In this document: positions 5,725 through 35,974 of the stretch, one piece after another
Position numbering within the stretch: the first letter of the stretch is position 1
Layout: the number at the start of each line of letters is the position of its first letter
Made by a program: the position numbers and the translations under genes
The notes under the pieces: generated by a model
What the model was told of the DNA's origin: nothing
The model's input: the letters and a program-made list of their open reading frames with translations, nothing else
Databases searched by the model: none
Virus record (IMG/VR): IMGVR_UViG_2541047699_000015
DNA length: 41,468 nt
Direction: 5' to 3' (one strand)
Source of the DNA: a virus
Taxonomy: Duplodnaviria; Heunggongvirae; Uroviricota; Caudoviricetes

Positions 5725-5741
5725 ATTACCTTTCAGGTAAT
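5725..5741. promoter_or_regulatory. 17-bp operator ATTACCTTTCAGGTAAT
   Basis: Perfect ATTACC-N5-GGTAAT palindrome in the divergent region between tailspike and plus-strand island. Confidence 0.6.
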
Positions 5742-5777
5742 TTGCAAAACGTGCTGGATAGCAAACAAATTATTTGC

Positions 5778-5797
5778 TACTGTATAAATATACAGTT
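5778..5797. promoter_or_regulatory. LexA (SOS) box TACTGTATAAATATACAGTT
   Basis: CTGT-N8-ACAG with AT-rich spacer, 18/20 match to consensus TACTGTATATATATACAGTA as remembered; 20 nt upstream of SD/start of gene 5818. Confidence 0.75.
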
Positions 5798-5817
5798 ATT
5801 GCATGGAGAAGATTAAG

Positions 5818-6075
5818 ATGCAGCAGTATCACTATCCACTGGAAGAGGGATTTACCGAAAGGATTCACACGCCGGGAGGCGTCAGGTCACTGGTGGAGGG
5901 ATCGCACTTGATGAAATTACTCCGGGATCTCGATAAGGATGGATTTAATGTCGATGGCCCACTTGCCGAACTGACTGCACTGATTAACTACGTCACCAGC
6001 TCACAGATGTCTATGCAGGATCTGCAAACACATCTCGACTATTGTGCCGAACAATTACGAAAACAAACCAGATAA
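5818..6075 (+). CDS. Small LexA-box-preceded protein, paralog of C-terminal domain of ORF6N protein; candidate antirepressor
   Basis: SD GGAGAA 6 nt before ATG 5818 (track start 5803 lacks SD); product aligns with C-terminus of 6889-7608 product (IH-P-GV...LM-LL...DG-V-G-AELT...QTH-Y). Confidence 0.6.
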   Translation: MQQYHYPLEEGFTERIHTPGGVRSLVEGSHLMKLLRDLDKDGFNVDGPLAELTALINYVTSSQMSMQDLQTHLDYCAEQLRKQTR

Positions 6076-6078
6076 GGT

Positions 6079-6122
6079 TTGCAATTACCAAATGGAGTGC
6101 TTATATTTACCTTTGCGGTAAA
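6079..6122 (+). promoter_or_regulatory. Sigma70-like promoter (TTGCAA-N17-TATATT) with overlapping operator TTTACCTTTGCGGTAAA
   Basis: -35 at 6079-6084, -10 at 6102-6107, operator 6106-6122 begins 22 nt after the -35 hexamer, same spacing as at 7653 and 35931. Confidence 0.55.
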
Positions 6123-6155
6123 TTTACATCGCACTCCTCTTGTGCCATAGTAATC

Positions 6156-6194
6156 GGGCACTGGCAAAATCCAGTGCCGGGATTGGCGTCCCGG
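6156..6194 (+). ncRNA. Structured leader: two mutually exclusive hairpins
   Basis: Hairpin A GGCACTGG/CCAGTGCC (6157-6178) and hairpin B CCGGGA/TCCCGG (6177-6194) share the CCGG segment, so only one can form. Confidence 0.35.
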
Positions 6195-6212
6195 ATTACT
6201 AGTAGGCGCATA

Positions 6213-6234
6213 CCACGCCAGACGTGGTTTTTTT
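6213..6234 (+). terminator. Rho-independent terminator/attenuator in leader
   Basis: Hairpin CCACG-CCAGA-CGTGG followed by T7 run. Confidence 0.6.
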
Positions 6235-6389
6235 ATGCGTATAGCACAGTCATATCCGAATTATGGTGGGCTGGGCAGGGGCACCGAAAGGTGCGCCGGT
6301 ACCTACTAGGCCGGTACGCCAACCTTGTCCAGTTCACCACCAGCAATTGGCGTTGCGGTGGTGGGTAACTTACTAGTAGAGGTATCGCT

Positions 6390-6896
6390 ATGCCAGGCCA
6401 AAAAATCTCAAACGACGATCTGTATTGGTTAATTTCTAATTCTCCACTCCTTCTTATGCTAAGGCAAGAAAGTGCACCACTGGTCAGTGAATTGATTAGC
6501 TGTAGAAATAGAATGTGGGATGAAGGGGCAGATTTAGATACCAATTTGTTTGATCATCTTATGCAACTAGCAGTCGATAACAAGGCAAAACTACGCTCTG
6601 AATACAACGCTTATCCAGAAATAGCAAAATACCTTAACGCTGAAATACTTGGTGGACCAGGTCAACCAGACCTAAAAACAAAAGATGGTTACCCTGTTGA
6701 GGTGAAGGTAGATACTTTTTCTCCTTCAGCATTAAAACAATTATTAAGGTATATGGATGCTTCTGGCGCAGATTTTGGTTTTGCTTGTGCAAAAACTCTT
6801 TCTGTAAAACTCCCTGAAAACATAAAGTTCATCCAGTTAGATTATAAAGATAATTGCTATTTCGTCGTGAAAGATGGAGGCAATGAAAATGCGTAA
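6390..6896 (+). CDS. Hypothetical protein (accessory island)
   Basis: SD AGAGG 7 nt before ATG 6390; 168 aa; no family recognised; stop overlaps next start (ATGCGTAA). Confidence 0.6.
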   Translation: MPGQKISNDDLYWLISNSPLLLMLRQESAPLVSELISCRNRMWDEGADLDTNLFDHLMQLAVDNKAKLRSEYNAYPEIAKYLNAEILGGPGQPDLKTKDGYPVEVKVDTFSPSALKQLLRYMDASGADFGFACAKTLSVKLPENIKFIQLDYKDNCYFVVKDGGNENA

Positions 6897-7608
6897 TATA
6901 GCTATTGATAAGTTGCCGATAACAACTCATTGCAACATCCCTGTAATGACTACAGAAATGCTTGCTGATTTGTATGACACAGAACCCAAACTGATTCGTC
7001 AAAACTATCAACGAAATGCAGATCGATTCATTGAGGGAAAACATTGTTTCAAGCTGATAGGCGAAGAATTACGAGCATTTAAGAACGAGTCCTCTCAAAG
7101 AGGTTTGCTTAATATTGCACCAAAAGTAAGTCATCTTTTCTTATGGACCGCTCGCGGTGCAGCACGACATGCGAAAATTCTTGAGACTGAAAAAGCGTGG
7201 GAGGTCTTCGAAAAACTGGAAGATTGCTACTTCGACAGAAAACCCGCAAATGTCAGCGGAGATGTTCGTCTCTCAGGTGGAGCTGATTTATCAAAGGCCA
7301 CTCAGGTAATTGAAAAATTCATGCCCGCCATTATGGAGGCGATCAAGCTGGAAGACAAAAAAGAATACAGTGCCCCACTGAAGCCCGGCTACCGCAGTCT
7401 GATTCATTCTCCGTCTGGTGTTCTCGGCCTGACGGAGAACTCATTGCTGATGAATCTGCTGAATCAGTTGCAGGACGACGGGCATGATGTATCGGGCGCG
7501 GCGGCGGAGCTGACCACCATGTTCTGCTACATCGTCGGTGTGAGCAAATGCCTGCGTGATATCCAGACCCACGCGGAGTACATCAACGACAAAGCAGGAT
7601 TCTTCTGA
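6889..7608 (+). CDS. ORF6N-domain protein (phage antirepressor-like) with C-terminal domain shared with 5818-6075
   Basis: N-terminal segment VMTTEMLADLYDTEPKLIRQNYQRNADRF...LWTARGAARHAKIL resembles ORF6N domain of antirepressor-type proteins; start at ATG 6889 with SD GGAGG 8 nt upstream. Confidence 0.6.
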   Translation: MRNIAIDKLPITTHCNIPVMTTEMLADLYDTEPKLIRQNYQRNADRFIEGKHCFKLIGEELRAFKNESSQRGLLNIAPKVSHLFLWTARGAARHAKILETEKAWEVFEKLEDCYFDRKPANVSGDVRLSGGADLSKATQVIEKFMPAIMEAIKLEDKKEYSAPLKPGYRSLIHSPSGVLGLTENSLLMNLLNQLQDDGHDVSGAAAELTTMFCYIVGVSKCLRDIQTHAEYINDKAGFF

Positions 7609-7652
7609 CGGGCGGCGGCACAGGGATGTGCCTTTAAATAATTCTGTACAGA

Positions 7653-7696
7653 TTGCAGACCGGGGGTGAATAGCGTACTATTACCTTAAAGGTAAA
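7653..7696 (+). promoter_or_regulatory. Promoter (TTGCAG-N17-TACTAT) with overlapping operator ATTACCTTAAAGGTAAA
   Basis: -35 at 7653-7658; operator 7680-7696 starts 22 nt after -35; precedes gene 7738. Confidence 0.5.
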
Positions 7697-7737
7697 CCTG
7701 TTTTTATTTTATACCTGTAACTTACCGGAGATTAAAG

Positions 7738-8064
7738 ATGACAAAACTTGGATTCGTGATGAGAGGTCCGGTAAGAAGCGGAACTCATGCAAAGCGTAGC
7801 AAGAGTCGTATTTTTACTGGTAAGGTTGTAGCACGTAAATCAGCTATTGGCTCGTTCAATAGTGAAAATGCGGCATTGCGCCATATTTTTATCAGCACAA
7901 AGCCAAGAGCATCCGCTGATGTGCATACAATGTCTATTCCTATCACAAAGAATATCAAGCGGATAAAAAAGCTCTCATCTGCAGAATCAAAAGAGATATC
8001 TTTCCGCCAGCTTAACTCATTAGAAACGCATATGAAGGAAGAGGAATTCGATGTTTTTGAGTGA
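7738..8064 (+). CDS. Basic small protein, possible antitoxin-like partner of downstream gene
   Basis: SD GGAG 7 nt before ATG; 108 aa, basic N-terminus, acidic C-terminus; C-terminal RQLNSLETH faintly resembles YefM/Phd NSLEE motif; 14-nt overlap with next gene. Confidence 0.5.
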   Translation: MTKLGFVMRGPVRSGTHAKRSKSRIFTGKVVARKSAIGSFNSENAALRHIFISTKPRASADVHTMSIPITKNIKRIKKLSSAESKEISFRQLNSLETHMKEEEFDVFE

Positions 8065-8563
8065 GTATAGCGGGAAGGTTATACCTACTGGTGAGTTTAA
8101 AACTGATGACTTTCTGATTTCGCTAAAAGATGCTTTTAAACAACACTGGCGTCATGGTCATCATCCTGATCTGGGAAAAGATACTCTTTTTGAAAGACCA
8201 GACGAAGTATTAGGCTTCCATCTCAGAAAGGTTCATGTCAATATTGGTGAATATGCATCATATTCATACTCATGTACTGAACAGTGTTGGGATGAGTGGT
8301 CATATGGATTGATTGATGAACAAGGAAATTACAGGCCAAAACCAACCAGTAACGCATATCTCATATATGCAGTCAATGAAATAAGAGATGCAGCCTTACT
8401 AGCTTATTGGGACCCGCCCGCACACACCAAAGCTAACGCAAAAGTTTGGATGGATTCCGTATTGAATTTCACAAAATTATTTCATGAACGAACGAATACA
8501 GCTCCACTTAGTAGAAATGTTTATCCGTGGGATTATTCGTACAAATCCAAAAAGCCTGCATAG
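8051..8563 (+). CDS. Candidate YafO-like toxin family protein (tentative)
   Basis: Segments DAFKQHWRHGHHPDLGKDTLFERPDE and FHLRKVHVNIGE resemble remembered E. coli YafO (DFISYKRDGVLPDTFGRDALYDD, ERVAHIHLANE); from memory only. Confidence 0.4.
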   Translation: MFLSEYSGKVIPTGEFKTDDFLISLKDAFKQHWRHGHHPDLGKDTLFERPDEVLGFHLRKVHVNIGEYASYSYSCTEQCWDEWSYGLIDEQGNYRPKPTSNAYLIYAVNEIRDAALLAYWDPPAHTKANAKVWMDSVLNFTKLFHERTNTAPLSRNVYPWDYSYKSKKPA

Positions 8564-8644
8564 TAGTTTTTTATGGACGAAACAAAAGTCAGTGCTACAC
8601 TCATTGACGCCACATTGAGGTGGCTTATAGATGGAAATTTCACA

Positions 8645-8806
8645 ATGAAAAAAGCATTTGCTGCACTGTTCGTTTTGTTGTCTCTGGTAGCTTCAACTCA
8701 GGCCTTTGCCGGTCGTTGTCAGCACGACAGCGACACTGCTGCTGACGGCTCCCGCTGCGGTGGGCGTTCTGCGGATTCCCGCCCGGGTGGCGGTGGCATT
8801 CGTTAA
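8645..8806 (+). CDS. Small secreted Cys-containing peptide
   Basis: Signal peptide MKKAFAALFVLLSLVASTQAFA then 31-aa Gly/Ser/Asp-rich mature part with two Cys; start at ATG 8645 rather than track start 8573. Confidence 0.45.
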   Translation: MKKAFAALFVLLSLVASTQAFAGRCQHDSDTAADGSRCGGRSADSRPGGGGIR

Positions 8807-8828
8807 AAACAAGGCCGCGAAAGCGGCC
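8805..8828 (-). terminator. Rho-independent terminator ending the virion operon
   Basis: Minus-strand hairpin GGCCGC-TTTC-GCGGCC followed by TTGTTTTT. Confidence 0.65.
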
Positions 8829-8829
8829 T

Positions 8830-8841
8830 GTGACATGTCAC
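8830..8841. repeat. Palindrome GTGACATGTCAC, copy 1
   Basis: Perfect 12-bp palindrome; contains stop codon of lipoprotein gene; immediately upstream of terminator in direction of transcription. Confidence 0.8.
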
Positions 8842-9218
8842 GCAACGCAATTATTACCGCGCCATGTAACATTTTTAATAATCTTATCAGCACCAAACTC
8901 AACGTAAACAGAGCAACTGAAATGGAGTGTATAACCGCCATCAGTTGTTGCGTATGTGTTTGAATATATAGTATTACCAATTAGATTAGACGTAGTATTA
9001 TACGTTGTGGTTTGTGGTACGTTATAACTACCAGAGCTTGAGTAAACATACACTCTGTTTCCATCTGGAGATGTAAGCTCTCCCTGAGGATACCCCCACT
9101 GCTGAACCATTGCGTCTATACTCTGCCCGCGCCACGTAAGCATATTTCTTTCAAACTGTGCAGCTGACTGGCATCCAACGAGAAGCATAAATCCAAAAAT
9201 CAAAAATACTTTTCTCAT
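8838..9218 (-). CDS. Lipoprotein at end of virion operon (possible superinfection-exclusion or virion lipoprotein)
   Basis: Start at ATG 9218 with SD AGGGG; signal peptide with lipobox LLVGC; Ser/Thr/Tyr/Asn-rich mature protein. Confidence 0.6.
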   Translation of the reverse strand: MRKVFLIFGFMLLVGCQSAAQFERNMLTWRGQSIDAMVQQWGYPQGELTSPDGNRVYVYSSSGSYNVPQTTTYNTTSNLIGNTIYSNTYATTDGGYTLHFSCSVYVEFGADKIIKNVTWRGNNCVA

Positions 9219-9303
9219 AATTACCCCTATCATGGAAAAACAGCACCAATCCACAAATTAACTAGTTATTTTATTATTCTTCCGAACAATACAATTCCGA
9301 ATA

Positions 9304-9426
9304 CTACAAAGCCGAACCATGCCGCTGCACGCAACAGAGATTCCAATTGAAACCCATTTTTATCAAAATGTATGAATAGCATAAAAACGCTGCACATATT
9401 AGTACAATAAAAGTTATTTGAACCAT
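9304..9426 (-). CDS. Small hydrophobic peptide (about 40 aa), not in ORF track
   Basis: SD AAGGAG immediately after stop of upstream gene, 5 nt before second of tandem ATGs; product MVQITFIVLICAAFLCYSYILIKMGFNWNLCCVQRHGSAL; alternative is track ORF 9266-9454 which lacks an SD. Confidence 0.3.
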   Translation of the reverse strand: MVQITFIVLICAAFLCYSYILIKMGFNWNLCCVQRHGSAL

Positions 9427-9437
9427 CATATCTCCTT

Positions 9438-11912: not shown

Positions 11913-11917
11913 TTAAT

Positions 11918-19717: not shown

Positions 19718-20322
19718 CAGGACAACCTCGCAATGGTAAACTCGTCAACCGGTGGCTGTGGTTCCTGTGATTCATTCTGGCTATGCGAGCCAGCACTAAG
19801 AATCACGCGATTGTACATATTGAGGGCAAACGTACCGAGGTCTGCATTCCCAGTCAGCGCCATGTTAATAGCTGCCGCAAGACGCCAGGCCAACGCCTCC
19901 ATAAAAATGGCATCAAACATGTTCACATCTGTAACGCGAGAGACATACTTGAGCCATGCCTGAGGCTGGTCTGTGTAGATCAACTTTCCTGTTCCGTTGG
20001 TGTCTGCACCAACTTCGTACTGAACGCGCATTGCTGCTGTTGGATTGCGTACACCAGGAAGCATAATTTCAGTAATGCGCAGACAATCTGACGGGTACTG
20101 GTACGCATATTCCCAGTCAGGCGGTGGATTGCTCGTATCTGCAAGCGCCACGCGTTTGGTAGCAAAGTTCCAGTCAAAATCAGAAAGCACAGTATCACGG
20201 CAGGCCTCAAAGTGCAGCGAACATTCCCCCGCTTCCTTGCTGGCTTCCGTCAGGCTGTTAATGCTGCGGCTGTTGCCAATATTGGACAGCGCACGATTAC
20301 AGATCTCTACTACAGAGGCCAT
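19717..20322 (-). CDS. Tail tubular protein A (T7 gp11-like)
   Basis: 201 aa; N-terminus VVEICNRALSNIGNSRSINSLTEAS resembles T7 gp11 NDILASIGEPPVSTLE; SD GGAGGTGA before ATG 20322. Confidence 0.55.
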   Translation of the reverse strand: MASVVEICNRALSNIGNSRSINSLTEASKEAGECSLHFEACRDTVLSDFDWNFATKRVALADTSNPPPDWEYAYQYPSDCLRITEIMLPGVRNPTAAMRVQYEVGADTNGTGKLIYTDQPQAWLKYVSRVTDVNMFDAIFMEALAWRLAAAINMALTGNADLGTFALNMYNRVILSAGSHSQNESQEPQPPVDEFTIARLS

Positions 20323-25423: not shown

Positions 25424-25491
25424 ATCAATGACTCCGTACGCAATTAAATTATTACCAATTTAACCACATATGATTTATTTATCGTAGACAG

Positions 25492-25529
25492 TTGACATTT
25501 AACGCGCGAATTATTACCTTTCAGGTAAC
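25492..25529 (+). promoter_or_regulatory. Promoter (-35 TTGACA) with overlapping operator ATTACCTTTCAGGTAAC upstream of tRNA
   Basis: TTGACA at 25492-25497; operator 25513-25529 covers -10/+1 region. Confidence 0.5.
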
Positions 25530-25850: not shown

Positions 25851-25927
25851 GTGGCATTAGCTCAGTTGGACAGAGCAACCGCCTTCTAAGCGGTTGGTCG
25901 CAGGTTCGAATCCTGCATGCCACGCCA
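25851..25927 (+). tRNA. tRNA-Arg (anticodon UCU), phage-encoded argU-like
   Basis: Cloverleaf read by eye: acceptor stem GTGGCAT/ATGCCAC, D-arm GCTC...GAGC, anticodon stem ACCGC/GCGGT with loop CTTCTAA (anticodon TCT at 25885-25887), T-arm GCAGG-TTCGAAT-CCTGC, discriminator G, encoded CCA. Confidence 0.9.
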
Positions 25928-25970
25928 GAATCACGCCTAAGGACCGTGATGCCAGAAGTTCCAGGTGCTT

Positions 25971-26012
25971 GGCGGTGATGGTTTCCCTTGAAGGACTATC
26001 ACCGCCCTTTTT
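25971..26012 (+). terminator. Terminator after tRNA
   Basis: Hairpin GGCGGTGAT...ATCACCGCC followed by CTTTTT. Confidence 0.55.
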
Positions 26013-26090
26013 ACAGCAGGACGCCATTGCGATGACTTCATGCTGTAAACCAGTACAGCCACGGAAGGCATAACTCATTGCTTCCAGTTC

Positions 26091-26114
26091 GCCCGGTTCG
26101 CCGGGCATTTTTTT
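26091..26114 (+). terminator. Second terminator immediately before RBS of gene 26126
   Basis: Hairpin GCCCGG-TTCG-CCGGGC followed by ATTTTTTT. Confidence 0.65.
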
Positions 26115-26552: not shown

Positions 26553-26564
26553 GTGACATGTCAC
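26553..26564. repeat. Palindrome GTGACATGTCAC, copy 2
   Basis: Perfect copy 4 nt after stop of gene 26126-26548 and 5 nt before terminator. Confidence 0.8.
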
Positions 26565-26569
26565 AATCA

Positions 26570-28067: not shown

Positions 28068-28663
28068 TGATTGCCATCCTGACGTTCTTTCAGTCTCTTC
28101 CTGGCTGCCGCTATGCGATCAGCAATTGTCACATTCACATTAACATCCAGGCGTTCTTTGAATGCGTTGACGTCGACGTGCTTACCAATCAGTTCGAGGT
28201 TCTTCACCTTGTCAGGCCATTTAATTTTTTTGAGGATGCCAACCAGCTCTTTCTCGTCTCCACGGCCTTCGAACATGTCGGCCAGTTCGAAACCTGTCAG
28301 GTACTGCCGCCAGACCTTAGGCCATTCCGAGACCGGCTTGATGCTCATATCGTCGTTGAGAATGTCAATCACGTCCATCTGGTCGATCTCCACCAGGCGC
28401 ATGAGAACGTAATCAGCACTGACGCGCATTCGTTTGTTGCGCTCCTCCATCAACTCGGCAATCCGTTTTTGAATGCGTTCATCGCGCATCATGACACTGG
28501 CTTTAACTGCCGCTGTATTTGGGGAGAATCCTGCGTTAATCGCTGCCTGAGTCTGGTTTTCAGGCGTTTTGATGTATGACTGGCAATAAGCCTCCTGCAT
28601 TGCTGTTAGTGGCTTAAATTGCGTTGATTTGCGTTTATAGGTTTTAGGTTCAGCAGGCATCAT
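28064..28663 (-). CDS. Terminase small subunit
   Basis: About 200 aa directly upstream of and overlapping large subunit; start at tandem ATG 28663/28660 (track start 28741 is TTG). Confidence 0.65.
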   Translation of the reverse strand: MMPAEPKTYKRKSTQFKPLTAMQEAYCQSYIKTPENQTQAAINAGFSPNTAAVKASVMMRDERIQKRIAELMEERNKRMRVSADYVLMRLVEIDQMDVIDILNDDMSIKPVSEWPKVWRQYLTGFELADMFEGRGDEKELVGILKKIKWPDKVKNLELIGKHVDVNAFKERLDVNVNVTIADRIAAARKRLKERQDGNQ

Positions 28664-28696
28664 AACCACCGTGGTAATAGTTACCGTTGTGGTAAT
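28662..28696. promoter_or_regulatory. Tandem operators at start of late (terminase) operon
   Basis: GTTACCGTTGTGGTAAT (28680-28696) and ATAACCACCGTGGTAAT (28662-28678), the latter overlapping the terS start codon. Confidence 0.55.
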
Positions 28697-28704
28697 AGTA
28701 CCAT

Positions 28705-28732
28705 GCAAAATAAAGCCGCCATAGTTGGCGGC
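28705..28732 (-). terminator. Terminator between early operon and terminase genes
   Basis: Minus-strand hairpin GCCGCC-AACTAT-GGCGGC followed by TTTATTTTG. Confidence 0.6.
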
Positions 28733-28773
28733 AGTATTCAAAACCCATCAAATTCATCATGCATAACCCACTC

Positions 28774-28785
28774 GTGACATGTCAC
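28774..28785. repeat. Palindrome GTGACATGTCAC, copy 3
   Basis: Perfect copy containing the TGA stop of gene 28782-29123, about 40 nt upstream of terminator 28705-28732. Confidence 0.8.
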
Positions 28786-29123
28786 AATATTAATTTCGTT
28801 TCATGCCAGCCTTTAGTCACCCAGCATTGCGAGTCACCATTACACGGGCATGAATTCACAGGAACTCTCTCGCCGCACTTACCGCAACGTTTTCTGCTGA
28901 TCGATTTTATACGCCCGTGCACGCGCGCATCATCCTGGCGGATCAGTAACGCTATATACTCACCAAATTCGTAAGGCGCACGCCCGGGGCGACGTGTGGC
29001 ACAGTTACGCTCCAGCATTTCAATTTCCTGAGCATCAAGCACAATTTCCAGCTTACGCACACCGGATTCAGCTTGTCTGGCTCTCTGAGCGGCTTTGCGC
29101 TCTGCTGCTGATTTAGCCATCAA
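28782..29123 (-). CDS. Small DNA-binding-like protein: basic RHH-like N-terminus plus C-terminal Cys cluster; candidate late regulator
   Basis: 113 aa; N-terminus AAERKAAQRARQAESGVRKLEIVLDAQE; C-terminal CGKCGERVPVNSCPCNG; last early gene before late operon. Confidence 0.45.
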   Translation of the reverse strand: MMAKSAAERKAAQRARQAESGVRKLEIVLDAQEIEMLERNCATRRPGRAPYEFGEYIALLIRQDDARVHGRIKSISRKRCGKCGERVPVNSCPCNGDSQCWVTKGWHETKLIL

Positions 29124-30274: not shown

Positions 30275-30284
30275 TTGTTATGCC

Positions 30285-30482: not shown

Positions 30483-30483
30483 A

Positions 30484-31334: not shown

Positions 31335-31768
31335 TGGTTGCCTCCTTTGCGAAGCTGGGCGGCTAACTCATCACATATGTGCGTCAAAGAACAAAGTTTG
31401 ATTGATGGATGTTCGCGCATCATCTCTACCCCCTGCGCCCGCACTTCAGACAGGAAAGCATCGGTGTCTGGCATATTTCCTGTTGCCTTCATTGCCTCCA
31501 AAATAACCAGAACGCCATCTCGCCCAATCTCCTCGCAGATAACCTCGGTGCTGTCGCCAACAACATCGCAAAATGCCTGAACTGCTTTACGAGCCAGCGC
31601 ATTCTCCGCAGCCAGCGCATTAGCACGCACCAGTTGCACTTCCAGCTGCGTTGCCAAATCGCTGATCAGCTTTGCCACACTGCGCATATCAACGGCACCA
31701 CATTCTGCTTTCAGTTCCGAAGCCATCTCATGCCCGGCGGAAACTAACCCTTTGATATTACTTTCCAT
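31331..31768 (-). CDS. Hypothetical early protein
   Basis: 145 aa ORF in early operon; no family recognised. Confidence 0.5.
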   Translation of the reverse strand: MESNIKGLVSAGHEMASELKAECGAVDMRSVAKLISDLATQLEVQLVRANALAAENALARKAVQAFCDVVGDSTEVICEEIGRDGVLVILEAMKATGNMPDTDAFLSEVRAQGVEMMREHPSIKLCSLTHICDELAAQLRKGGNQ

Positions 31769-31818
31769 CTTTACCCTCGCTTATCCACATAACTTATTGA
31801 TTACATTGATAACTAAAA

Positions 31819-31847
31819 AGATCGTCGATTCATGCCGATCTATTTTT
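31819..31847. terminator. Hairpin terminator overlapping HNH gene stop
   Basis: AGATCG-loop-CGATCT flanked by A5 and T5 runs. Confidence 0.45.
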
Positions 31848-32438
31848 CATCAGTGATTCATAAAACTTTTGCCACTTATGCCGACCGAAATTAGCCTTCG
31901 AGTTACAGCTCGAACAAAGGCAAATAAGGTTCTCCTGACGACAATCTTGCTTGTCGTAATTGATGTGATGAGTTGTTAGCCTTTTGTCTGTTCCATCACA
32001 ACCTGGGTTCTGACAAGTAAAACCATCTCGCTCAATAACCCTCTTGCTCGTTTCTCGGAAATCCCACGGATACGGCAATCTCGATAATCCACCAGACCAG
32101 TTTGGATTTCCTTCCCCCTTCATCAGAGAAGAACGCATTATGTTGGAACACTGTTTCGAGCAGCATTTATGACGCTTCTCATGACTCAAGAAAACGGAGA
32201 ACGAAGATCCGCATACGCAGCATATTTTTAATACTCGCTTTAGTTCCCGATTTACCGTCTTGCCTCGCTGTGAAATTCCTACACACTGAAGTGAGCAGAA
32301 CCTTGAAGATGAGTTGGCTCGCTTAACCTGATATTGCCTGCCACATACGGAGCAAACCTTTTCGATTTTCCCACCCTTCCAATTCGGGTTTTTATCACCG
32401 GATACAATCAATCCCGCAGCATTGGGCTTCTCGCTCAT
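31830..32438 (-). CDS. HNH endonuclease with multiple Cys zinc-binding motifs
   Basis: CxxC pairs and HHINYDKQDCRQENLICLCSSCNSK (HNH motif). Confidence 0.75.
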   Translation of the reverse strand: MSEKPNAAGLIVSGDKNPNWKGGKIEKVCSVCGRQYQVKRANSSSRFCSLQCVGISQRGKTVNRELKRVLKICCVCGSSFSVFLSHEKRHKCCSKQCSNIMRSSLMKGEGNPNWSGGLSRLPYPWDFRETSKRVIERDGFTCQNPGCDGTDKRLTTHHINYDKQDCRQENLICLCSSCNSKANFGRHKWQKFYESLMKNRSA

Positions 32439-32788
32439 AGTTCCTCAACCTCCCATCCACCACCGAGCTTTTTAGGTTTTGGATAAGCAACCTGAAAGAC
32501 AAACGGATAGCTGTCTGCCGCAACCTTCATCTTGACTCTCGCATCGTCAGTAAAGACTGACTTACTTCCCTTAACGTCCACCATCACCAACTGCCCGTCA
32601 GCCAACATCACGGCAAAATCTACAGTCAGGAAGCAGTTGTCAGCTAACCGCAGCTTGATACCCTCAAATCGATACCAGGCGATTTCCCCTGCACGTTTAC
32701 GAAGCTCAAGGTGCTGGCAATACGCAGATTCTGTTTTGTTCATCTGGCCTGTTTTGAGTCGACCAAGAGCCTGTATCTGTTTTCTCAT
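32435..32788 (-). CDS. DUF1064-like protein (putative PD-(D/E)xK-type nuclease)
   Basis: MNKTESAYCQHLELRKRAGEI...VDVKG...DDARVKMKVAADSYPF pattern matches DUF1064 as remembered; operator overlaps its RBS. Confidence 0.55.
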   Translation of the reverse strand: MRKQIQALGRLKTGQMNKTESAYCQHLELRKRAGEIAWYRFEGIKLRLADNCFLTVDFAVMLADGQLVMVDVKGSKSVFTDDARVKMKVAADSYPFVFQVAYPKPKKLGGGWEVEEL

Positions 32789-32790
32789 GA

Positions 32791-32869
32791 TTTACCCCTG
32801 AGGTAATTAAAAACCACATAAGACACGAAATCAATAGATTTTAGAATATTTTATTACCTAACAGGTAAT
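32791..32869. promoter_or_regulatory. Two operators downstream of replication genes
   Basis: TTTACCCCTGAGGTAAT (32791-32807) and ATTACCTAACAGGTAAT (32853-32869), between terminator after P-like gene and DUF1064 gene. Confidence 0.6.
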
Positions 32870-32880
32870 TGTCGAGGCGT

Positions 32881-32900
32881 AAAAAAATGCGCTATCGCGC
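32881..32900 (-). terminator. Terminator after replication genes
   Basis: Minus-strand hairpin GCGC-GATA-GCGC followed by ATTTTTTT. Confidence 0.5.
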
Positions 32901-32905
32901 TGGTA

Positions 32906-33691
32906 TTACTTGATAAATCCTGCCGCCTTTCCCCGCCTGTATTCCTCCATCAGCCACTGCGCCGGTGTTATTCCCCCCAGGGTAGCGGCGTTAGGCATAC
33001 ACCCGAAACTTCGCCCTGGTGGATGGTAAACGTCTCTCCCTGTGTCCGGAGGCGTACTCATGGGTTCTGGCTTTGCCTGTATGCTGATCACCGGATCGGG
33101 TATCTGCTGTCCGGAAGCCACCTTTTTCGCCCAATCATCAAGCAGCCTGCGCGCGTGTTTCTCAACCTCAATCTCGCTAAGCTGGCGCTGATACATTGCA
33201 CGGCGGGTATCACATACGACCCAGTACATAACCGGATGCCGCCACGGGAATCTTTCGGGACCACCAGGATATAAACTTTTTTCCTTGCTGTACCGGTGAA
33301 ACTCCGCCATCACATCGTCAATGGTGACGCCAAGAACCATCTTGCTGTCTTTGCACCACTTGATAAATTGCCCTGGAGACGGCCAGAACGGAGATTCACT
33401 GGCGCGGGCGTGGCGCATACCAGCAGAAACCTGTTCACGGGTTCGGATCCCCCCTTCGGCAAACGCAGCAATCCACTGCTGTTTTGCAGCAACTTCCTGC
33501 TCTGGCGTCTTCAGGTTGGTTACCACTGCCGCCGGAAACAGTTGTTTCAGCTGTTTAAAAAGGGCATCAACAAGCCTCTCTGCTGACATGTTCACCACAT
33601 TGTCATTGTTGACGTACTGATGCTCATAACCTGACATGCGAGAAAGGGCTTCTCCGTCACGGTTTTGTATCGCGGTAAAAACGTTGTTCAC
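32906..33691 (-). CDS. Replication protein P-like (helicase loader)
   Basis: Segment QQWIAAFAEGGIRTREQVSAGMRHARASESPFWPSPGQFIKWCK closely resembles lambda P (RRQWVLAFRENGITTMEQVNAGMRVARRQNRPFLPSPGQFVAWCR) from memory; probable GTG start 33691 with SD GGAGGA, overlapping O-like stop. Confidence 0.75.
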   Translation of the reverse strand: MNNVFTAIQNRDGEALSRMSGYEHQYVNNDNVVNMSAERLVDALFKQLKQLFPAAVVTNLKTPEQEVAAKQQWIAAFAEGGIRTREQVSAGMRHARASESPFWPSPGQFIKWCKDSKMVLGVTIDDVMAEFHRYSKEKSLYPGGPERFPWRHPVMYWVVCDTRRAMYQRQLSEIEVEKHARRLLDDWAKKVASGQQIPDPVISIQAKPEPMSTPPDTGRDVYHPPGRSFGCMPNAATLGGITPAQWLMEEYRRGKAAGFIK

Positions 33692-34503
33692 AAGAAATCC
33701 TCCCATGCTTCAGGGCTGTTCCAGTGCGGAACGTTGTTATCAGGTAATGTTGATTGCTTCTGTCTGCTAATCTGCAGCCGCCTTGCCAGCTTCTGCTCCC
33801 ACTGTGCCTGATGGTATGCCTTACCCTCAGCCATCCAGTAAATTCTGAACTCTGCAAGTTCCTGTGCCGTTGGCAGACTGTCCAGGTAGATCCCCTGCAA
33901 TGAGCTTTTCCGAAGAAAGTCATCTGATGGCTGCCATTGTTCATGCATGACAAATTTGCCTAATTGCCCTGGCCCACCAGGAGGAACAAAGTTATTCATC
34001 ACGGCGTTGTTTGCTCCGGGGTCATGAGGCACAGAATCCCCGCTTTTTGTCCTGCTCTCCCTCTCTTGGTTAAATGACTGGTTATATGACTGGTTCTGGA
34101 TCCCGTTTTTGGGATCATTCAACATCCCGTTTTTGGGATCATTCAACATCCCGTTTTTGGGTATATTCCCGTTTTCGGGTATATTCCCGTTTTCGGGTTC
34201 ATTGCCCCCCTCCCGGTTGCCTTTAATGTTCCCGTTTTTGGTTATATTAAGAGAGAAAACCCGCACTCTTTTTGTCGCTCCCTTTCTCTCTCCGGTATCT
34301 GAAATAATCCCCATTTTCATGAGCGATATAAGCCCGGCCTGCACGGTTTTTTTATTCAGGCAAGTGTCTTTAACGAGGCGTTCTATGCTGGGGTAGCAGA
34401 GGTTATATTCATCAGCTCTGTCAGCCATCGAGAGCAGTATGAGCTTTAATGATGAGCTACCTGGATCTGTCTCCCAAGCCCAATCTGTTGCATGTCTGCT
34501 CAT
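33688..34503 (-). CDS. Replication initiator (lambda O-like) with internal iterons
   Basis: N-terminal winged-helix-like domain, central repeat NGNIPENGNIPKNGMLNDPKNGMLNDPKNG encoded by DNA iterons, C-terminal domain; SD GGAG before ATG 34503. Confidence 0.7.
   Translation of the reverse strand: MSRHATDWAWETDPGSSSLKLILLSMADRADEYNLCYPSIERLVKDTCLNKKTVQAGLISLMKMGIISDTGERKGATKRVRVFSLNITKNGNIKGNREGGNEPENGNIPENGNIPKNGMLNDPKNGMLNDPKNGIQNQSYNQSFNQERESRTKSGDSVPHDPGANNAVMNNFVPPGGPGQLGKFVMHEQWQPSDDFLRKSSLQGIYLDSLPTAQELAEFRIYWMAEGKAYHQAQWEQKLARRLQISRQKQSTLPDNNVPHWNSPEAWEDFL
34101..34247. repeat. Origin iterons (six direct repeats, core TCCCGTTTT(T/C)GGG) inside O-like gene
   Basis: Copies start at 34101, 34125, 34149, 34167, 34185, 34230; first two are identical 24-mers. 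Confidence 0.8.
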
Positions 34504-34518
34504 GATTAATCTCCGCTA

Positions 34519-34719
34519 TCAGCTTGAATGTTGTGGGGAGGAATTAATCATGATCTGCTTAATCTCTGCCCTGATGCGACGGTTTGACTCCATGGTGCAC
34601 TCAACACAGTGTCCGTTGTAAACCCAGCGTTCACTGTCATGTCCGTGCTTACATGGTTTTCCGGTGTAGTAGCGTTTAAGTCCGCGCTTTGCGGCATCAA
34701 TACGTGTAATGATTTCCAT
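34519..34719 (-). CDS. Small Cys/His-cluster regulatory protein in CII-like position
   Basis: Start ATG 34719 (MEIITR...); motif GKPCKHGHDSERWVYNGHCVEC; between cro-like and O-like genes. Confidence 0.5.
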   Translation of the reverse strand: MEIITRIDAAKRGLKRYYTGKPCKHGHDSERWVYNGHCVECTMESNRRIRAEIKQIMINSSPQHSS

Positions 34720-34798
34720 GGTAAGCCCTGTTATTAGTATTGGGATTACGGTTATTTTGTGCTGACACAAAAAAAAGATCAACCAGATTTGGTTTTTT

Positions 34799-34815
34799 AT
34801 TACCTTTGAGGTACG
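34799..34815. promoter_or_regulatory. Operator ATTACCTTTGAGGTACG downstream of cro terminator
   Basis: One perfect half-site and one 4/5 half-site. Confidence 0.5.
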
Positions 34816-34824
34816 AATAGATAT

Positions 34825-34847
34825 GAAAAGACCGCCGGATGGCGGTC
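34825..34847 (-). terminator. Weak terminator after cro-like gene
   Basis: Minus-strand hairpin GACCGCC-ATCC-GGCGGTC followed by TTTTC. Confidence 0.45.
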
Positions 34848-34869
34848 TACAGAGGGTTGTTGCCAGATA

Positions 34870-35100
34870 TCATGAGTAGAAGAAGTATGCCAGTTCCGCT
34901 TTTGAGCGCAGCCATTGTCTTGTTTTACAGGCTTTAAAAAGCCCATTCATCAATACCTTACCTGGCATTTTGCGCTTACCTGTTAAGTGAGTCTGGATAT
35001 AGTGACTCGTCGTTCCGGCTTCCTGTGCGAAGGCTTCACGCTCATCCGGAGTAAGTGCAAGCCAGTGCTTTTTGAAATCGAAATGTCCGTTATCGCTCAT
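34870..35100 (-). CDS. Cro-like HTH regulator
   Basis: 76 aa, first gene of the operon that contains the replication genes, divergent from CI-like gene; HTH-like segment AFAQEAGTTSHYIQTHLTG. Confidence 0.6.
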   Translation of the reverse strand: MSDNGHFDFKKHWLALTPDEREAFAQEAGTTSHYIQTHLTGKRKMPGKVLMNGLFKACKTRQWLRSKAELAYFFYS

Positions 35101-35135
35101 AGCTATTGCCTGATATTTATTTCAGATAATAAATA

Positions 35136-35200
35136 TTCACCCATAAGGTAACAAAAATCAAGGATAGTTACCTATGGGGTGCATTTACCTGTTGGGTAAT
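35136..35200. promoter_or_regulatory. OR-like region: three operators between cro-like and CI-like genes
   Basis: TTCACCCATAAGGTAAC (35136-35152), GTTACCTATGGGGTGCA (35167-35183), TTTACCTGTTGGGTAAT (35184-35200); candidate -10 TAATAT at 35197-35202. Confidence 0.6.
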
Positions 35201-35254
35201 ATTGCTTTAAATTGAATCATCTACTGATTCATATATGAGGCGATTTTCCAGAAA

Positions 35255-35839
35255 ATGAAAAGTATCCAGGACGTCCGCAGGCAAAATCTCAACGACTTGA
35301 TCGACCGTGAATTCAATGGTGTTCAGACGCGGATGGCAGAAAAACTTGGAACTCAGGCAAATCTGGTAAACCGCTGGGCTCTTGGCAAGAAGGTTATCGG
35401 CGACCAGGTTGCGCGAAAAATTGAAGCTGCCGCCAATAAACCCCGTAACTGGCTTGATATCGATCGCTCGCTTTCTCAGGAAGGTTTTCAGCCTGTCGGC
35501 CCAAGCGACATTGGTCAGCTGGCAGCTCACAACCTGGAACGCTGGATGAGTGAAAGCCGCGACCTTTCAACTCAGGGAAAACTTCACCGCGCATCCGGCG
35601 TCGCCCAGGTGACAATAAGCCGCCTGTTAAACAATGAGGTCAGCGTTTCCATTTCCACCCTGGAGAATGTTGCATCTGCATTCGGGCGTCACGGATATGA
35701 ACTACTGATTCATCCGCATGACCCTGCGACCATCAACTATGATCGCTCGCGCTACGCATTGTTACCCGAAACCGAGAAAGCAAAGATCGAAAGTTACATT
35801 GAATTTGTCATCAACCAGAACGAAAAAAACAAACAATAA
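35255..35839 (+). CDS. CI-like prophage repressor with two tandem HTH (XRE-type) domains, no peptidase domain
   Basis: HTH1 about residues 20-60 (QTRMAEKLGTQANLVNRW), HTH2 about 110-150 (LHRASGVAQVTISRLLNN); 194 aa; no LexA-like Ser/Lys autocleavage module. Confidence 0.65.
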   Translation: MKSIQDVRRQNLNDLIDREFNGVQTRMAEKLGTQANLVNRWALGKKVIGDQVARKIEAAANKPRNWLDIDRSLSQEGFQPVGPSDIGQLAAHNLERWMSESRDLSTQGKLHRASGVAQVTISRLLNNEVSVSISTLENVASAFGRHGYELLIHPHDPATINYDRSRYALLPETEKAKIESYIEFVINQNEKNKQ

Positions 35840-35860
35840 AACCATATTTTTCAGTAAGTA

Positions 35861-35883
35861 AGTCGCCTTATGGCGGCTTTTTT
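35861..35883 (+). terminator. Rho-independent terminator after CI-like gene
   Basis: Hairpin AGTCGCC-TTAT-GGCGGCT followed by T6. Confidence 0.7.
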
Positions 35884-35895
35884 ATTGCCTATTCG

Positions 35896-35974
35896 ATTAC
35901 CTAACGGGTAATTTTTTTAACTCATATCTATTGACATCAAACCATATACGCATAATTATTACCTCAACGGTAAC
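35896..35974 (+). promoter_or_regulatory. OL-like region: operator, -35 TTGACA, operator
   Basis: ATTACCTAACGGGTAAT (35896-35912); TTGACA 35931-35936; ATTACCTCAACGGTAAC (35958-35974) starting 22 nt after -35. Confidence 0.6.

What the first reader, a model, noticed from the sequence alone, without database searches (positions are those of the whole stretch)
5725..35974. Distributed 17-bp operator ATTACC-N5-GGTAAT at 13 or more sites, at promoters of nearly every transcription unit
The same palindrome is at the cro/CI switch (3 sites, 35136-35200), the OL-like region (35896, 35958), downstream of the replication genes (32791, 32853), before the CII-like gene (34799), as a tandem pair overlapping the terminase small-subunit start (28662-28696), at the tRNA promoter (25513) and three times in the accessory island (5725, 6106, 7680). 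At three promoters (6079, 7653, 35931) the operator begins exactly 22 nt after the -35 hexamer. Canonical lambdoid phages confine operators to OL/OR; a genome-wide operator set resembles the phiC31 CIR or mycobacteriophage stoperator arrangement and implies that one protein, probably the tandem-HTH CI-like repressor and/or Cro, directly silences early, late and accessory units.
Basis: seen in the sequence. Interest (0 to 1): 0.8.

Follow-up and report, generated by a model that had tools for sequence, protein, structure and literature searches.

The report
Known repressor operators of phiV10-like prophage
The repeated 17-bp palindrome is real and almost certainly the binding site of the prophage's master repressor, but the same scattered sites are already annotated in the related phage epsilon15, so this is a known feature and not a discovery.

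Summary
TTACC-N5-GGTAA occurs 10 times exactly and 4 times with one mismatch in the window, against about 0.7 expected. It is the most frequent hyphenated palindrome there. I count 14 credible sites, and all lie in the 6.7% of the window that is intergenic. Adjacent host DNA (100 kb) has no exact copy.

The window is an E. coli prophage of the phiV10/epsilon15 group (Uetakevirus). Its 194-aa repressor is a full-length homologue of the structurally solved Salmonella phage SPC32H Rep. It also has the SPC32H-type antirepressor Ant behind a LexA box.

The same motif sits at the same syntenic positions in phiV10, epsilon15, SPC32H, Tyrion, a Klebsiella phage and a Serratia prophage. The epsilon15 RefSeq record already labels seven of these sites as repressor-binding.

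It is not new. The stoperator analogy fails, because the sites are palindromic, intergenic and absent from inside operons. Phage P1 C1 is the better analogue.

Small additions: four promoters share one operator geometry; paired operators keep a 62-bp spacing; the operator at 6106 heads an isrK/C4-RNA plus antirepressor operon. No protein binding was tested here.

The parts
35255..35839 (+). rep: prophage repressor, 194 aa. N-terminal HTH DNA-binding domain plus a C-terminal HTH_3-like oligomerisation/Ant-binding region.
   Evidence: Full-length match to SPC32H Rep, PDB 5D50 (E 4e-42). 100% identical to the phiV10/ZX5 repressor. Pfam HTH_3 at residues 106-147 and a weak YdaS/Cro-type hit at 21-61. 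N36, L37, R40 and W41 of the helix I presume to be the recognition helix (NLVNRW in this window) are invariant in 16 homologues.
34870..35100 (-). cro-like gene (76 aa), divergent from rep.
   Evidence: phrog_35 'transcriptional repressor', E 5.6e-13. 76% identical to epsilon15 gp39, with an invariant AGTTSHYIQ.HLT stretch.
35136..35152 (.). OR1-like operator TTCACCCATAAGGTAAC, overlapping the -35/spacer of the leftward cro promoter (TTGTTA 35154-35149, TATTAT 35131-35126).
35167..35183 (.). OR2-like operator GTTACCTATGGGGTGCA, with 2 core mismatches.
   Evidence: The 17-bp spacing to OR3 is conserved in epsilon15, SPC32H and BUCT711.
35184..35200 (.). OR3-like operator TTTACCTGTTGGGTAAT, on the rep side.
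35896..35912 (.). OL2-like operator ATTACCTAACGGGTAAT. It starts 17 nt after the rep terminator stem (35860-35879) and lies upstream of the -35 element.
35958..35974 (.). OL1-like operator ATTACCTCAACGGTAAC, overlapping the end of the -10 and the start site of the rightward early-left promoter (TTGACA 35931-35936, AATTAT 35954-35959). It is 62 bp from OL2.
   Evidence: The 62-bp spacing is conserved in relatives.
34799..34815 (.). Single operator ATTACCTTTGAGGTACG, 14 nt downstream of the cro terminator (34848-34829) and 79 nt upstream of the p42 homologue (34519-34719).
   Evidence: Syntenic sites in phiV10 (33112), Tyrion (35365) and BUCT711 (6032).
32853..32869 (.). Post-replication operator 1, ATTACCTAACAGGTAAT. 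It fills the spacer between TCGACA (32875-32870) and TAAAAT (32853-32848) on the minus strand and follows a short GC hairpin with a T7 run.
   Evidence: Invariant in six phages (alignment A2). Annotated as a repressor site in epsilon15 at 35906-35922.
32791..32807 (.). Post-replication operator 2, TTTACCCCTGAGGTAAT. It begins at the last 2 nt of the -10 TTTAAT (-35 TTGATT at 32834-32829), overlaps the ribosome-binding site of the DUF1064 gene, and is 62 bp from operator 1.
28662..28696 (.). Tandem operator pair with 18-bp spacing. It lies between a terminator (28732-28715) and the likely terS ATG at 28660 and overlaps the terS ribosome-binding site.
   Evidence: Syntenic pairs in phiV10 (87/105), epsilon15 (12/30; 12-27 annotated as a repressor site) and Tyrion (67/85).
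25513..25529 (.). Operator ATTACCTTTCAGGTAAC in the divergent region between the head operon (p06 homologue, start 25423, minus strand) and the tRNA-Arg/p03 unit (plus strand). A conserved TTGACA at 25492-25497 (+) lies 15 nt upstream.
   Evidence: Invariant in six phages (A1). Annotated as a repressor site in epsilon15 at 2931-2947.
5725..5741 (.). Operator ATTACCTTTCAGGTAAT in the divergent region between the tail fibre gene (start 5621, minus strand) and ant (plus strand).
   Evidence: Conserved in all six phages, with a one-base variant (ATCACC) in phiV10 (A3). Annotated as a repressor site in epsilon15 at 19895-19911.
5780..5795 (.). LexA box CTGTATAAATATACAG, immediately upstream of ant.
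   Evidence: Sequence. The CTGTAT-N-ATACA core is conserved in all six phages (A3). It matches the SPC32H scheme in which LexA controls ant (Kim and Ryu 2013 abstract, from memory).
5803..6075 (+). ant: small antirepressor. The start may instead be the ATG at 5818.
   Evidence: 89% identical to SPC32H Ant (E 2e-57); phrog_450.
6106..6122 (.). Operator TTTACCTTTGCGGTAAA at the start site of promoter P6079 (TTGCAA 6079-6084, TATATT 6102-6107).
   Evidence: Syntenic sites in phiV10 (20497), Tyrion (21393) and BUCT711 (17377).
6158..6234 (+). isrK-family Hfq-binding sRNA, ending in a terminator hairpin (6212-6228).
   Evidence: Rfam RF01394, 68.1 bits against a gathering score of 50. Fold z-score -4.9. 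Terminator.
6259..6344 (+). C4 antisense RNA, of the P1/P7 immI type.
   Evidence: Rfam RF01695, 76.7 bits against a gathering score of 45, full-length match.
6874..7608 (+). Second antirepressor: an ORF6N N-terminal domain fused to an Ant-like C-terminal domain.
   Evidence: Pfam ORF6N, E 1e-18. phrog_1760 anti-repressor, E 1.5e-97, and phrog_450 on residues 161-242. The C-terminus is 42% identical to the small Ant (E 6e-17).
7680..7696 (.). Operator ATTACCTTAAAGGTAAA at the start site of promoter P7653 (TTGCAG 7653-7658, TACTAT 7676-7681). It lies ahead of the 7738-8806 cassette: a hypothetical protein, a weakly YafO-like protein and a membrane protein.

Best explanation
The 17-bp palindrome ATTACC-N5-GGTAAT is the operator of the prophage's master repressor Rep (35255-35839), a homologue of epsilon15 gp38 and SPC32H Rep. 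Each half-site would be read by one N-terminal HTH domain. Rep is published as a tetramer with two pairs of DNA-binding domains, so it can hold two operators at once. That would explain the conserved pairs: 17-18 bp apart at OR and terS, and 62 bp apart at OL and after the replication genes.

In the lysogen, Rep would sit on operators that overlap the start site or spacer of at least six sigma-70-like promoters: PR, PL, P32875, P32834, P6079 and P7653. It would also sit on operators placed just after terminators at the entry to the terS, head and tail-fibre units. Each insulated transcription unit would then be shut off on its own.

Induction would follow the SPC32H scheme. DNA damage removes LexA from the ant promoter, Ant takes the Rep tetramer apart, and all operators clear together. 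That includes the one at P6079, which releases a second Ant-domain antirepressor operon carrying isrK and C4 RNAs. The Cro-like protein probably uses the same sites during lytic growth.

Shown here: the sites, their enrichment, their positions and their conservation; the homology of Rep and Ant; the LexA box. Inferred: that Rep (and Cro) binds the sites, that paired operators are bridged, and that late units are repressed directly.
For: - Enrichment and location: as detailed in the observation check. Host flank.
- Dimeric-HTH signature: the half-sites are invariant and the central 5 bp vary freely (matrix; A1-A3).
- Syntenic sites in phiV10, epsilon15, SPC32H, Tyrion, BUCT711 and a Serratia prophage: 11-18 sites each against 0.3-0.7 expected where shuffles were run.
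- The epsilon15 RefSeq record marks seven of them as 'protein_bind: repressor, lysogeny'.
- Rep matches SPC32H Rep over its full length. N36, L37, R40 and W41 of its presumed recognition helix are invariant across 42-98% identical homologues, which fits an unchanged operator.
- Published statements: SPC32H Rep binds palindromic sites as a tetramer, Ant breaks the tetramer, and the domain pairs lie about 100 A apart (PMC9638917; PMC9986798).
- Ant is 89% identical to SPC32H Ant and has a LexA box.
- Pair spacing is 62 bp in 11 of 12 pairs across six genomes.
- Overexpressing the identical ZX5 repressor cut endolysin and holin transcripts by more than 99.9% (PMC9782041).
Against:
- The primary papers (Kropinski 2007; Kim and Ryu 2013; Kim et al. 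2016) are not in the held library, so I could not confirm which operators were tested biochemically.
- The Cro-like protein is at least as conserved as Rep and cannot be separated from Rep as the binder by comparative data.
- The operators at 5725, 25513 and 34799 do not overlap a convincing sigma-70 core promoter for the adjacent late or early genes. How they would repress is therefore unclear.
- The terS pair has no recognisable promoter of its own.
Confidence: 0.82

Rival explanations
1. The sites are mainly Cro-like protein sites, used to shut down early and accessory promoters during lytic growth. Rep would act only at OR and OL.
For: The Cro-like protein (34870-35100) falls in a 'transcriptional repressor' PHROG. 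It is 76% identical between this prophage and epsilon15, with an invariant HTH-like stretch, so it matches the invariant motif as well as Rep does. In lambdoid phages Cro and CI share operators (established knowledge).
Against: The epsilon15 authors assigned the sites to the repressor. Rep must bind somewhere at OR and OL, and no other repeated motif is present there. Operators in front of late genes make little sense for a lytic-phase repressor. The two readings are not exclusive.
Confidence: 0.08
2. The motif is the target of a different phage regulator, for example the conserved 113-aa 'transcriptional regulator' (28782-29123) encoded just upstream of terS. That protein would act as an activator of late and accessory units.
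For: Several sites precede late units: terS, head and tail fibre. The regulator belongs to phrog_536, 'transcriptional regulator', and is conserved in the genus.
Against: Half of the sites cluster at the rep/cro and early-left control regions, overlapping core promoter elements in positions typical of repression. A separate conserved palindrome, GTGACATGTCAC, sits next to this gene and at two terminators, and is a better candidate for its target.
Confidence: 0.04
3. The repeats are not protein-binding operators. They would be module-boundary or recombination sequences, or a restriction-modification target carried with promoter/terminator cassettes.
For: The sites lie at junctions between mosaic modules, often just after terminators. 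The phage encodes DNA methyltransferases. The bipartite form resembles some restriction-modification targets.
Against: Invariant half-sites with a free 5-bp centre, strict intergenic placement, fixed register with -10 elements at four promoters, and fixed 17/18/62-bp spacings all point to a dimeric or tetrameric DNA-binding protein. Restriction-modification targets would also occur inside genes.
Confidence: 0.03

Closest known systems
Epsilon15 gp38 repressor binding sites (RefSeq NC_004775.2 / GenBank AY150271; Kropinski et al. 2007, Virology 369:234)
   Same: The same 17-bp palindrome at the same syntenic places: before terS, before the head operon, in the tail-fibre/gp19(ant) gap, at OL, and after the replication genes. 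These are annotated 'protein_bind: repressor' and align column for column with the window's sites.
   Different: The repressors are only 42% identical overall. The epsilon15 record omits its own OR sites (33341, 33358, 33388). It has no equivalents of the window's 6106 and 7680 sites, because epsilon15 lacks those cassettes.
Salmonella phage SPC32H Rep-Ant-LexA switch (Kim and Ryu 2013, J Virol; Kim et al. 2016, PNAS; PDB 5D50/5D4Z)
   Same: Full-length Rep homologue (E 4e-42). Ant is 89% identical. A LexA box precedes ant. SPC32H carries the same motif, with 10 exact core copies. Rep lacks a RecA-cleavable peptidase domain.
   Different: The Rep C-terminal half has diverged. This prophage adds a second, Rep-operated antirepressor operon with isrK and C4 RNAs, which the SPC32H record does not show.
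Phage P1 C1 repressor with more than 17 dispersed operators, including Op51 controlling the immI c4-icd-ant operon (established knowledge: Heinrich et al. 1995; Lobocka et al. 2004)
   Same: One master repressor with operators scattered over the genome at many separate promoters. A repressor-controlled operon encodes a C4 antisense RNA followed by an antirepressor. The window has Rfam C4 at 6259-6344 downstream of the operator at 6106.
   Different: P1 operators are asymmetric 17-mers read by an unrelated, monomeric C1. No protein homology is implied, and P1 is a plasmid prophage.
Streptomyces phage phiC31 conserved inverted repeats (CIRs) bound by the c repressor (established knowledge)
   Same: 17-bp inverted repeats distributed at many intergenic sites and promoters across the genome, bound by one repressor.
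   Different: Unrelated repressor protein and host. The resemblance is in architecture only and was not tested here.
Mycobacteriophage L5/Bxb1 stoperators (gp71/gp69) (established knowledge; PMC1934351 abstract)
   Same: Many repressor sites outside the immunity region. The terS pair, which lies after a terminator and has no promoter of its own, could act as a roadblock.
   Different: Stoperators are asymmetric 13-14-bp sites, oriented with transcription and spread within transcribed regions. Here the sites are symmetric, all are intergenic, and none lies in the 16-kb structural operon.
Lambda OL/OR with CI and Cro
   Same: Divergent rep/cro genes with three operators between them, operators overlapping PR and PL, and 17-bp pseudo-palindromes.
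   Different: Operators are not confined to OL and OR. Rep has no S24 autocleavage domain and is inactivated by an antirepressor. Published work describes a tetramer rather than a dimer-of-dimers arrangement.

Membership tests
Uetakevirus (epsilon15/phiV10/SPC32H) Rep regulon | Repressor homologous over its full length to epsilon15 gp38 / SPC32H Rep | tested here: met
   phmmer against PDB 5D50, E 4e-42, residues 1-190. tblastn: 100% identity to phiV10, 42% to epsilon15/SPC32H.
Uetakevirus (epsilon15/phiV10/SPC32H) Rep regulon | 17-bp ATTACC-N5-GGTAAT sites at OR and OL and at the syntenic distributed positions annotated as repressor sites in epsilon15 | tested here: met
   plus alignments A1-A3. 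The window sites 25513, 5725 and 32853 align with annotated epsilon15 sites. 28680 and the OL pair correspond by position.
Uetakevirus (epsilon15/phiV10/SPC32H) Rep regulon | Small Ant antirepressor whose promoter carries a LexA box | tested here: met
   Ant is 89% identical to SPC32H Ant. CTGTATAAATATACAG at 5780-5795, conserved across the genus.
Uetakevirus (epsilon15/phiV10/SPC32H) Rep regulon | Genome synteny with the genus (terS-terL, head/tail, ant, tail fibre, lysis, int, recET, rep/cro, replication) | tested here: met
   97.7-98.6% nucleotide identity to phiV10-like phages over the immunity/replication region. Gene order matches the phiV10 record.
Uetakevirus (epsilon15/phiV10/SPC32H) Rep regulon | Physical binding of Rep to the sites | not testable with these tools
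   Needs EMSA, footprinting or ChIP. The primary SPC32H and epsilon15 papers are not in the held library.
Mycobacteriophage stoperators | Asymmetric site with a fixed orientation relative to transcription | tested here: not met
   The sites are perfect or near-perfect palindromes.
Mycobacteriophage stoperators | Sites spread within transcribed regions and operons | tested here: not met
   All 14 sites are intergenic. No match at <=1 mismatch lies between 7,696 and 25,513, which spans the whole structural operon.
Lambda-type CI/Cro switch | Operators restricted to OL and OR | tested here: not met
   Nine sites lie outside OR and OL.
Lambda-type CI/Cro switch | Repressor with a RecA-stimulated S24 autocleavage domain | tested here: not met
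   Pfam finds only HTH families in Rep and no Peptidase_S24.
P1-type immI module (c4 RNA - icd - ant under master-repressor control) | C4 antisense RNA gene upstream of an antirepressor gene | tested here: met
   Rfam RF01695, 76.7 bits (gathering score 45), at 6259-6344. Antirepressor at 6874-7608.
P1-type immI module (c4 RNA - icd - ant under master-repressor control) | Operon promoter overlapped by the master repressor's operator | tested here: inconclusive
   The operator at 6106-6122 overlaps the -10 end and start site of a 9/12 consensus promoter at 6079-6107. Neither promoter activity nor repression was measured.
P1-type immI module (c4 RNA - icd - ant under master-repressor control) | C4 target sites (a'/b') in the ant leader and an icd homologue | not tested
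   I did not search for complementarity between C4 loops and the 6345-6900 region. The 168-aa ORF (6390-6896) belongs to phrog_18738, of unknown function.

The most novel reading that the evidence does not exclude
Rep tetramers (or octamers) bridge the conserved 62-bp operator pairs and the single operators. The prophage would then be silenced by a looped, multi-operator network that directly blocks late units (terS, head, tail fibre) and a second antirepressor operon with isrK and C4 RNAs. This would be functionally convergent with P1 C1. As far as I can tell it has never been tested for this phage group; PMC9986798 states that the repression mechanism of SPC32H Rep 'has not been extensively characterized'.
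Probability: 0.4. Interest if true: 0.4.

Novelty: already known. Interest (0 to 1): 0.2.

Why it matters
It matters modestly. phiV10-like prophages are common in E. coli: the left junction segment is at least 80% covered in 523 of 5,426 complete genomes. They include O157 serotype-converting phages. Knowing that one Ant-sensitive repressor probably gates every transcription unit explains why these prophages can be silent and still switch on all at once.

The analysis also yields a compact set of orthogonal operator/promoter parts with one fixed geometry. And it points to a concrete untested question: whether a tetrameric repressor uses 62-bp operator pairs and operators placed after terminators to repress late genes directly. 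As a discovery, however, the operator set is already annotated in epsilon15.

Tried and rejected
- I tried to read the primary literature: Kropinski 2007 (PMID 17825342, PMC2698709), Kim and Ryu 2013 (PMC3807360) and Kim et al. 2016 (PMC4983836). None is held. I relied on the epsilon15 GenBank features and on later papers that describe SPC32H Rep.
- Full-text searches for the motif itself and for Uetakevirus operators found no paper describing it.
- I planned a specificity-covariation test: do operators change when the recognition helix changes? It is not possible. Key residues of the presumed recognition helix (N36, L37, R40, W41) are invariant in all 16 aligned homologues down to 42% identity, and the motif is unchanged even in a Serratia prophage.
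- Chance is rejected. A host-wide motif is rejected.
- The stoperator reading is rejected, because the sites are symmetric and intergenic only.
- 5494 is probably not a real site. It has one mismatch, lies inside the tail-fibre gene, has no counterpart in relatives, and host DNA shows about 2-3 such one-mismatch hits per 40 kb.
- I looked for an operator ahead of the lysis genes, as in phiV10 (24692) and epsilon15 (24704). There is none in the 72-bp gap at 3087-3158, because this prophage lacks the oac module.
- The site near int that relatives carry (TTACCTTAAAGGTAT) would lie beyond the right end of the window.
- Pfam and NCBIfam gave nothing for the cro-like, p42 and 113-aa regulator proteins.

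Full report
**1.
ATTACC-N5-GGTAAT is exact at 5725, 32853 and 35896. The 15-bp core TTACC-N5-GGTAA is exact at ten positions and has one mismatch at four more, against 0.67 +/- 0.87 matches in dinucleotide-preserving shuffles.

An unbiased count of every hyphenated 5+5 palindrome with gaps of 0-12 puts TTACC-N5-GGTAA first with 10 copies. Unrelated palindromes reach at most 3.

With the weaker third OR site (35167-35183, two core mismatches) there are 14 credible sites. A fifteenth match at 5494, inside the tail-fibre gene, is probably chance.

Under a gene map built from the ORF list and phiV10 synteny, only 6.7% of the window is intergenic, yet all 14 sites are intergenic. The half-sites are invariant and the central five bases vary freely. 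That is the signature of a symmetric dimeric DNA reader.

**2. What the window is.**
The window is a prophage of the phiV10/epsilon15 group (genus Uetakevirus). It is 97.7-98.6% identical to phiV10, PAS61 and related phages across the immunity and replication region.

Bases 1-1071 are the host genes yfgH and yfgI. The attR core (aatcattcccactcaat, the reverse complement of the published attP core quoted) is at 1163-1179. The window ends 6 nt beyond the integrase start codon.

Relative to the phiV10 record the window is reverse-complemented.

**3.
I fetched 100 kb of chromosome next to a near-identical prophage in E. coli ECSC054. It has no exact core match and six one-mismatch matches. The motif is specific to the phage.

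**4. The arrangement is conserved and already annotated.**
The same core occurs far more often than expected in each relative:

| Genome | Matches at <=1 mismatch | Expected from shuffles |
|---|---|---|
| phiV10 | 14 | 0.65 |
| epsilon15 | 15 | 0.61 |
| SPC32H | 18 (some likely chance) | not run |
| Enterobacter phage Tyrion | 15 | 0.51 |
| Klebsiella phage BUCT711 | 13 | 0.49 |
| Serratia ficaria prophage, 20.6 kb (repressor 54% identical) | 11 | 0.30 |

The positions are syntenic:
- a tandem pair just before terS;
- one site before the head operon;
- one site in the tail-fibre/ant gap;
- one site after ant;
- the OR cluster and the OL pair;
- one site after the cro terminator;
- a pair after the replication genes;
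- in relatives only, one site before the lysis genes and one before int.

Alignments of three of these regions show the operators as islands of invariance in otherwise divergent DNA (A1-A3).

The epsilon15 RefSeq record carries seven 'protein_bind: repressor, lysogeny' features: 12-27, 2931-2947, 19895-19911, 32479-32494, 32554-32570, 32616-32632 and 35906-35922. Three of them align directly with the window's 25513, 5725 and 32853. The rest correspond by position to the terS and OL sites.

The distributed operator set was therefore recognised by the epsilon15 annotators. From memory, Kropinski et al. 2007 give a consensus of the form ATTACCWDWWNGGTAAT. I could not open that paper, so this is a recollection, not a check.

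**5. Who binds.**
The 194-aa product of 35255-35839 matches SPC32H Rep (PDB 5D50) over residues 1-190 with E 4e-42. It is 100% identical to the repressor of phiV10 and ZX5.

Pfam sees an HTH_3 domain at residues 106-147 and a weak Cro/YdaS-type hit at 21-61. It sees no S24 peptidase.

Later papers describe SPC32H Rep as having an N-terminal DNA-binding domain, a middle dimerisation domain and a C-terminal tetramerisation domain that also binds Ant. They report that it binds palindromic DNA as a tetramer whose DNA-binding pairs come from different dimers, and that the paired domains lie about 100 A apart (PMC9638917; PMC9986798).

Across 16 homologues from E. coli, Citrobacter, Raoultella, Serratia, Enterobacter, Klebsiella and Salmonella, the N-terminal 70 residues are the best-conserved part. 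The helix I take to be the recognition helix reads NLVNRW in this window, and N36, L37, R40 and W41 are invariant. This fits the unchanged operator but rules out a covariation test.

The Cro-like protein (34870-35100; phrog_35 'transcriptional repressor') is also highly conserved. It probably shares the sites, as Cro does in lambda. Comparative data cannot separate the two proteins.

Overexpressing the identical ZX5 repressor lowered endolysin and holin transcripts by 99.97-99.99% (PMC9782041). That is consistent with repression of lytic genes but does not show direct repression.

**6. Anatomy of the sites.**
Four promoters share one geometry: a -35 hexamer, a 17-nt spacer, and a -10 hexamer whose last two bases are the first two of the operator. 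The operator therefore covers the transcription start.

| Promoter | Strand | -35 | -10 | Operator starts |
|---|---|---|---|---|
| PL | + | TTGACA 35931 | AATTAT | 35958 |
| P6079 | + | TTGCAA | TATATT | 6106 |
| P7653 | + | TTGCAG | TACTAT | 7680 |
| P32834 | - | TTGATT | TTTAAT | 32807 |

The other sites are placed as follows:
- At P32875 (TCGACA, 16-nt spacer, TAAAAT) the operator fills the spacer.
- At PR (TTGTTA at 35154, TATTAT) the OR1-like site covers the -35 and spacer.
- The OL pair and the post-replication pair are built alike: terminator, operator, a 'CTATTGA' -35 element, -10, operator, ribosome-binding site, ATG. Both are 62 bp centre to centre. This spacing is 62 bp in 11 of 12 such pairs in six genomes and 63 bp in the twelfth.
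- The terS pair (18-bp spacing, conserved) follows a terminator, has no recognisable promoter of its own and overlaps the terS ribosome-binding site. Rep could act there as a roadblock to read-through.
- The sites at 5725, 25513 and 34799 lie upstream of the adjacent genes' likely core promoters, so how they would act is uncertain.
- At 25513 a conserved TTGACA (25492, plus strand) points towards tRNA-Arg (25851-25927) and the p03-like gene.

**7. The 'accessory island' is mostly secondary immunity.**
- The gene at 5803-6075 encodes an Ant that is 89% identical to the characterised SPC32H antirepressor.
- It is preceded by a perfect LexA box at 5780-5795, conserved across the genus.
- Downstream of the operator-bearing P6079, Rfam finds an isrK-family sRNA (6158-6234, 68 bits) and a C4 antisense RNA (6259-6344, 77 bits).
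- These are followed by a 168-aa ORF and a 244-aa ORF6N protein whose C-terminus is 42% identical to Ant.

This resembles the P1 immI c4-icd-ant operon, which the P1 master repressor C1 controls through one of its many dispersed operators (established knowledge). P1 C1 is therefore a closer functional analogue than stoperators.

**8. Comparison and verdict.**
- The system is a member of the epsilon15/SPC32H Rep regulon by every feature I could test.
- It is not a stoperator system: its sites are symmetric, intergenic and absent from the 16-kb structural operon.
- It is not a lambda-type switch in the strict sense: it has operators beyond OL and OR, and Rep has no S24 domain.
- It resembles the phiC31 CIRs and the P1 C1 operators in architecture only.

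What remains open, and is worth a modest experiment, is whether Rep really represses late units directly and whether the 62-bp pairs are bridged by one tetramer.

Noticed in passing
window 6158-6234 and 6259-6344 (+): Rfam isrK Hfq-binding sRNA (68.1 bits) and C4 antisense RNA (76.7 bits) lie in tandem. They are downstream of the operator-bearing promoter P6079 and upstream of an ORF6N-Ant fusion antirepressor (6874-7608). This is a P1 immI-like module inside a podovirus prophage.
   Followed up: partly
window 5674-5696 (-) and 25450-25472 (-): A second conserved motif, CATAT(A/G)TGGTT-N5-GGTAATA, occurs exactly twice. Both copies are in the late-gene direction, 45-57 nt downstream of a Rep operator: one ahead of the tail-fibre gene, one ahead of the head operon. 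It is nearly invariant in six phages and contains an operator half-site. It may be a late promoter or an activator site.
   Followed up: partly
window 8830-8841, 26553-26564, 28774-28785: The 12-bp perfect palindrome GTGACATGTCAC occurs three times, each 0-41 nt upstream of a rho-independent terminator hairpin. One copy sits between the 113-aa regulator gene and the terS terminator, where GTGACA-18-CATGAT also scores as a promoter. It is conserved at 2-3 syntenic places in all five relatives and absent from 100 kb of host DNA. It may be a late-regulator or antitermination element.
   Followed up: partly
window 5780-5795: A perfect LexA box, CTGTATAAATATACAG, lies directly upstream of the Ant homologue and is conserved across the genus. 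It implies SOS induction through an antirepressor rather than through repressor cleavage.
   Followed up: yes
window 1-1288: The left end is host DNA (yfgH, yfgI), with the attR core aatcattcccactcaat at 1163-1179. At least 80% of the 3.2-kb junction segment is present in 523 of 5,426 complete E. coli genomes, so this prophage type is common.
   Followed up: partly
window 28660-28741: The 225-aa terS ORF that starts at TTG 28741 (and the equivalent 224-aa phiV10 annotation) probably starts too early. Epsilon15 and Tyrion terS begin right after the operator pair, which corresponds to the ATG at 28660 here.
   Followed up: partly
window 8838-9218 (-): A 126-aa ORF has a lipoprotein-type signal sequence (MRKVFLIFGFMLLVGC...) and lies at the end of the structural operon. 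It has no Pfam or NCBIfam match and no operator of its own. It may be a moron.
   Followed up: no
window 25857-26108 (-) vs 25851-25927 (+): The ORF homologous to phiV10p04 overlaps tRNA-Arg(TCT) on the opposite strand, so the phiV10p04 annotation may be spurious.
   Followed up: no
window 3087-3158: This prophage lacks the O-antigen acetylase (oac) module found between the tail fibre and lysis genes in phiV10, SPC32H and Tyrion. It also lacks the operator that precedes the lysis cassette in those phages. The lysis genes here are presumably co-transcribed with the tail-fibre gene.
   Followed up: partly
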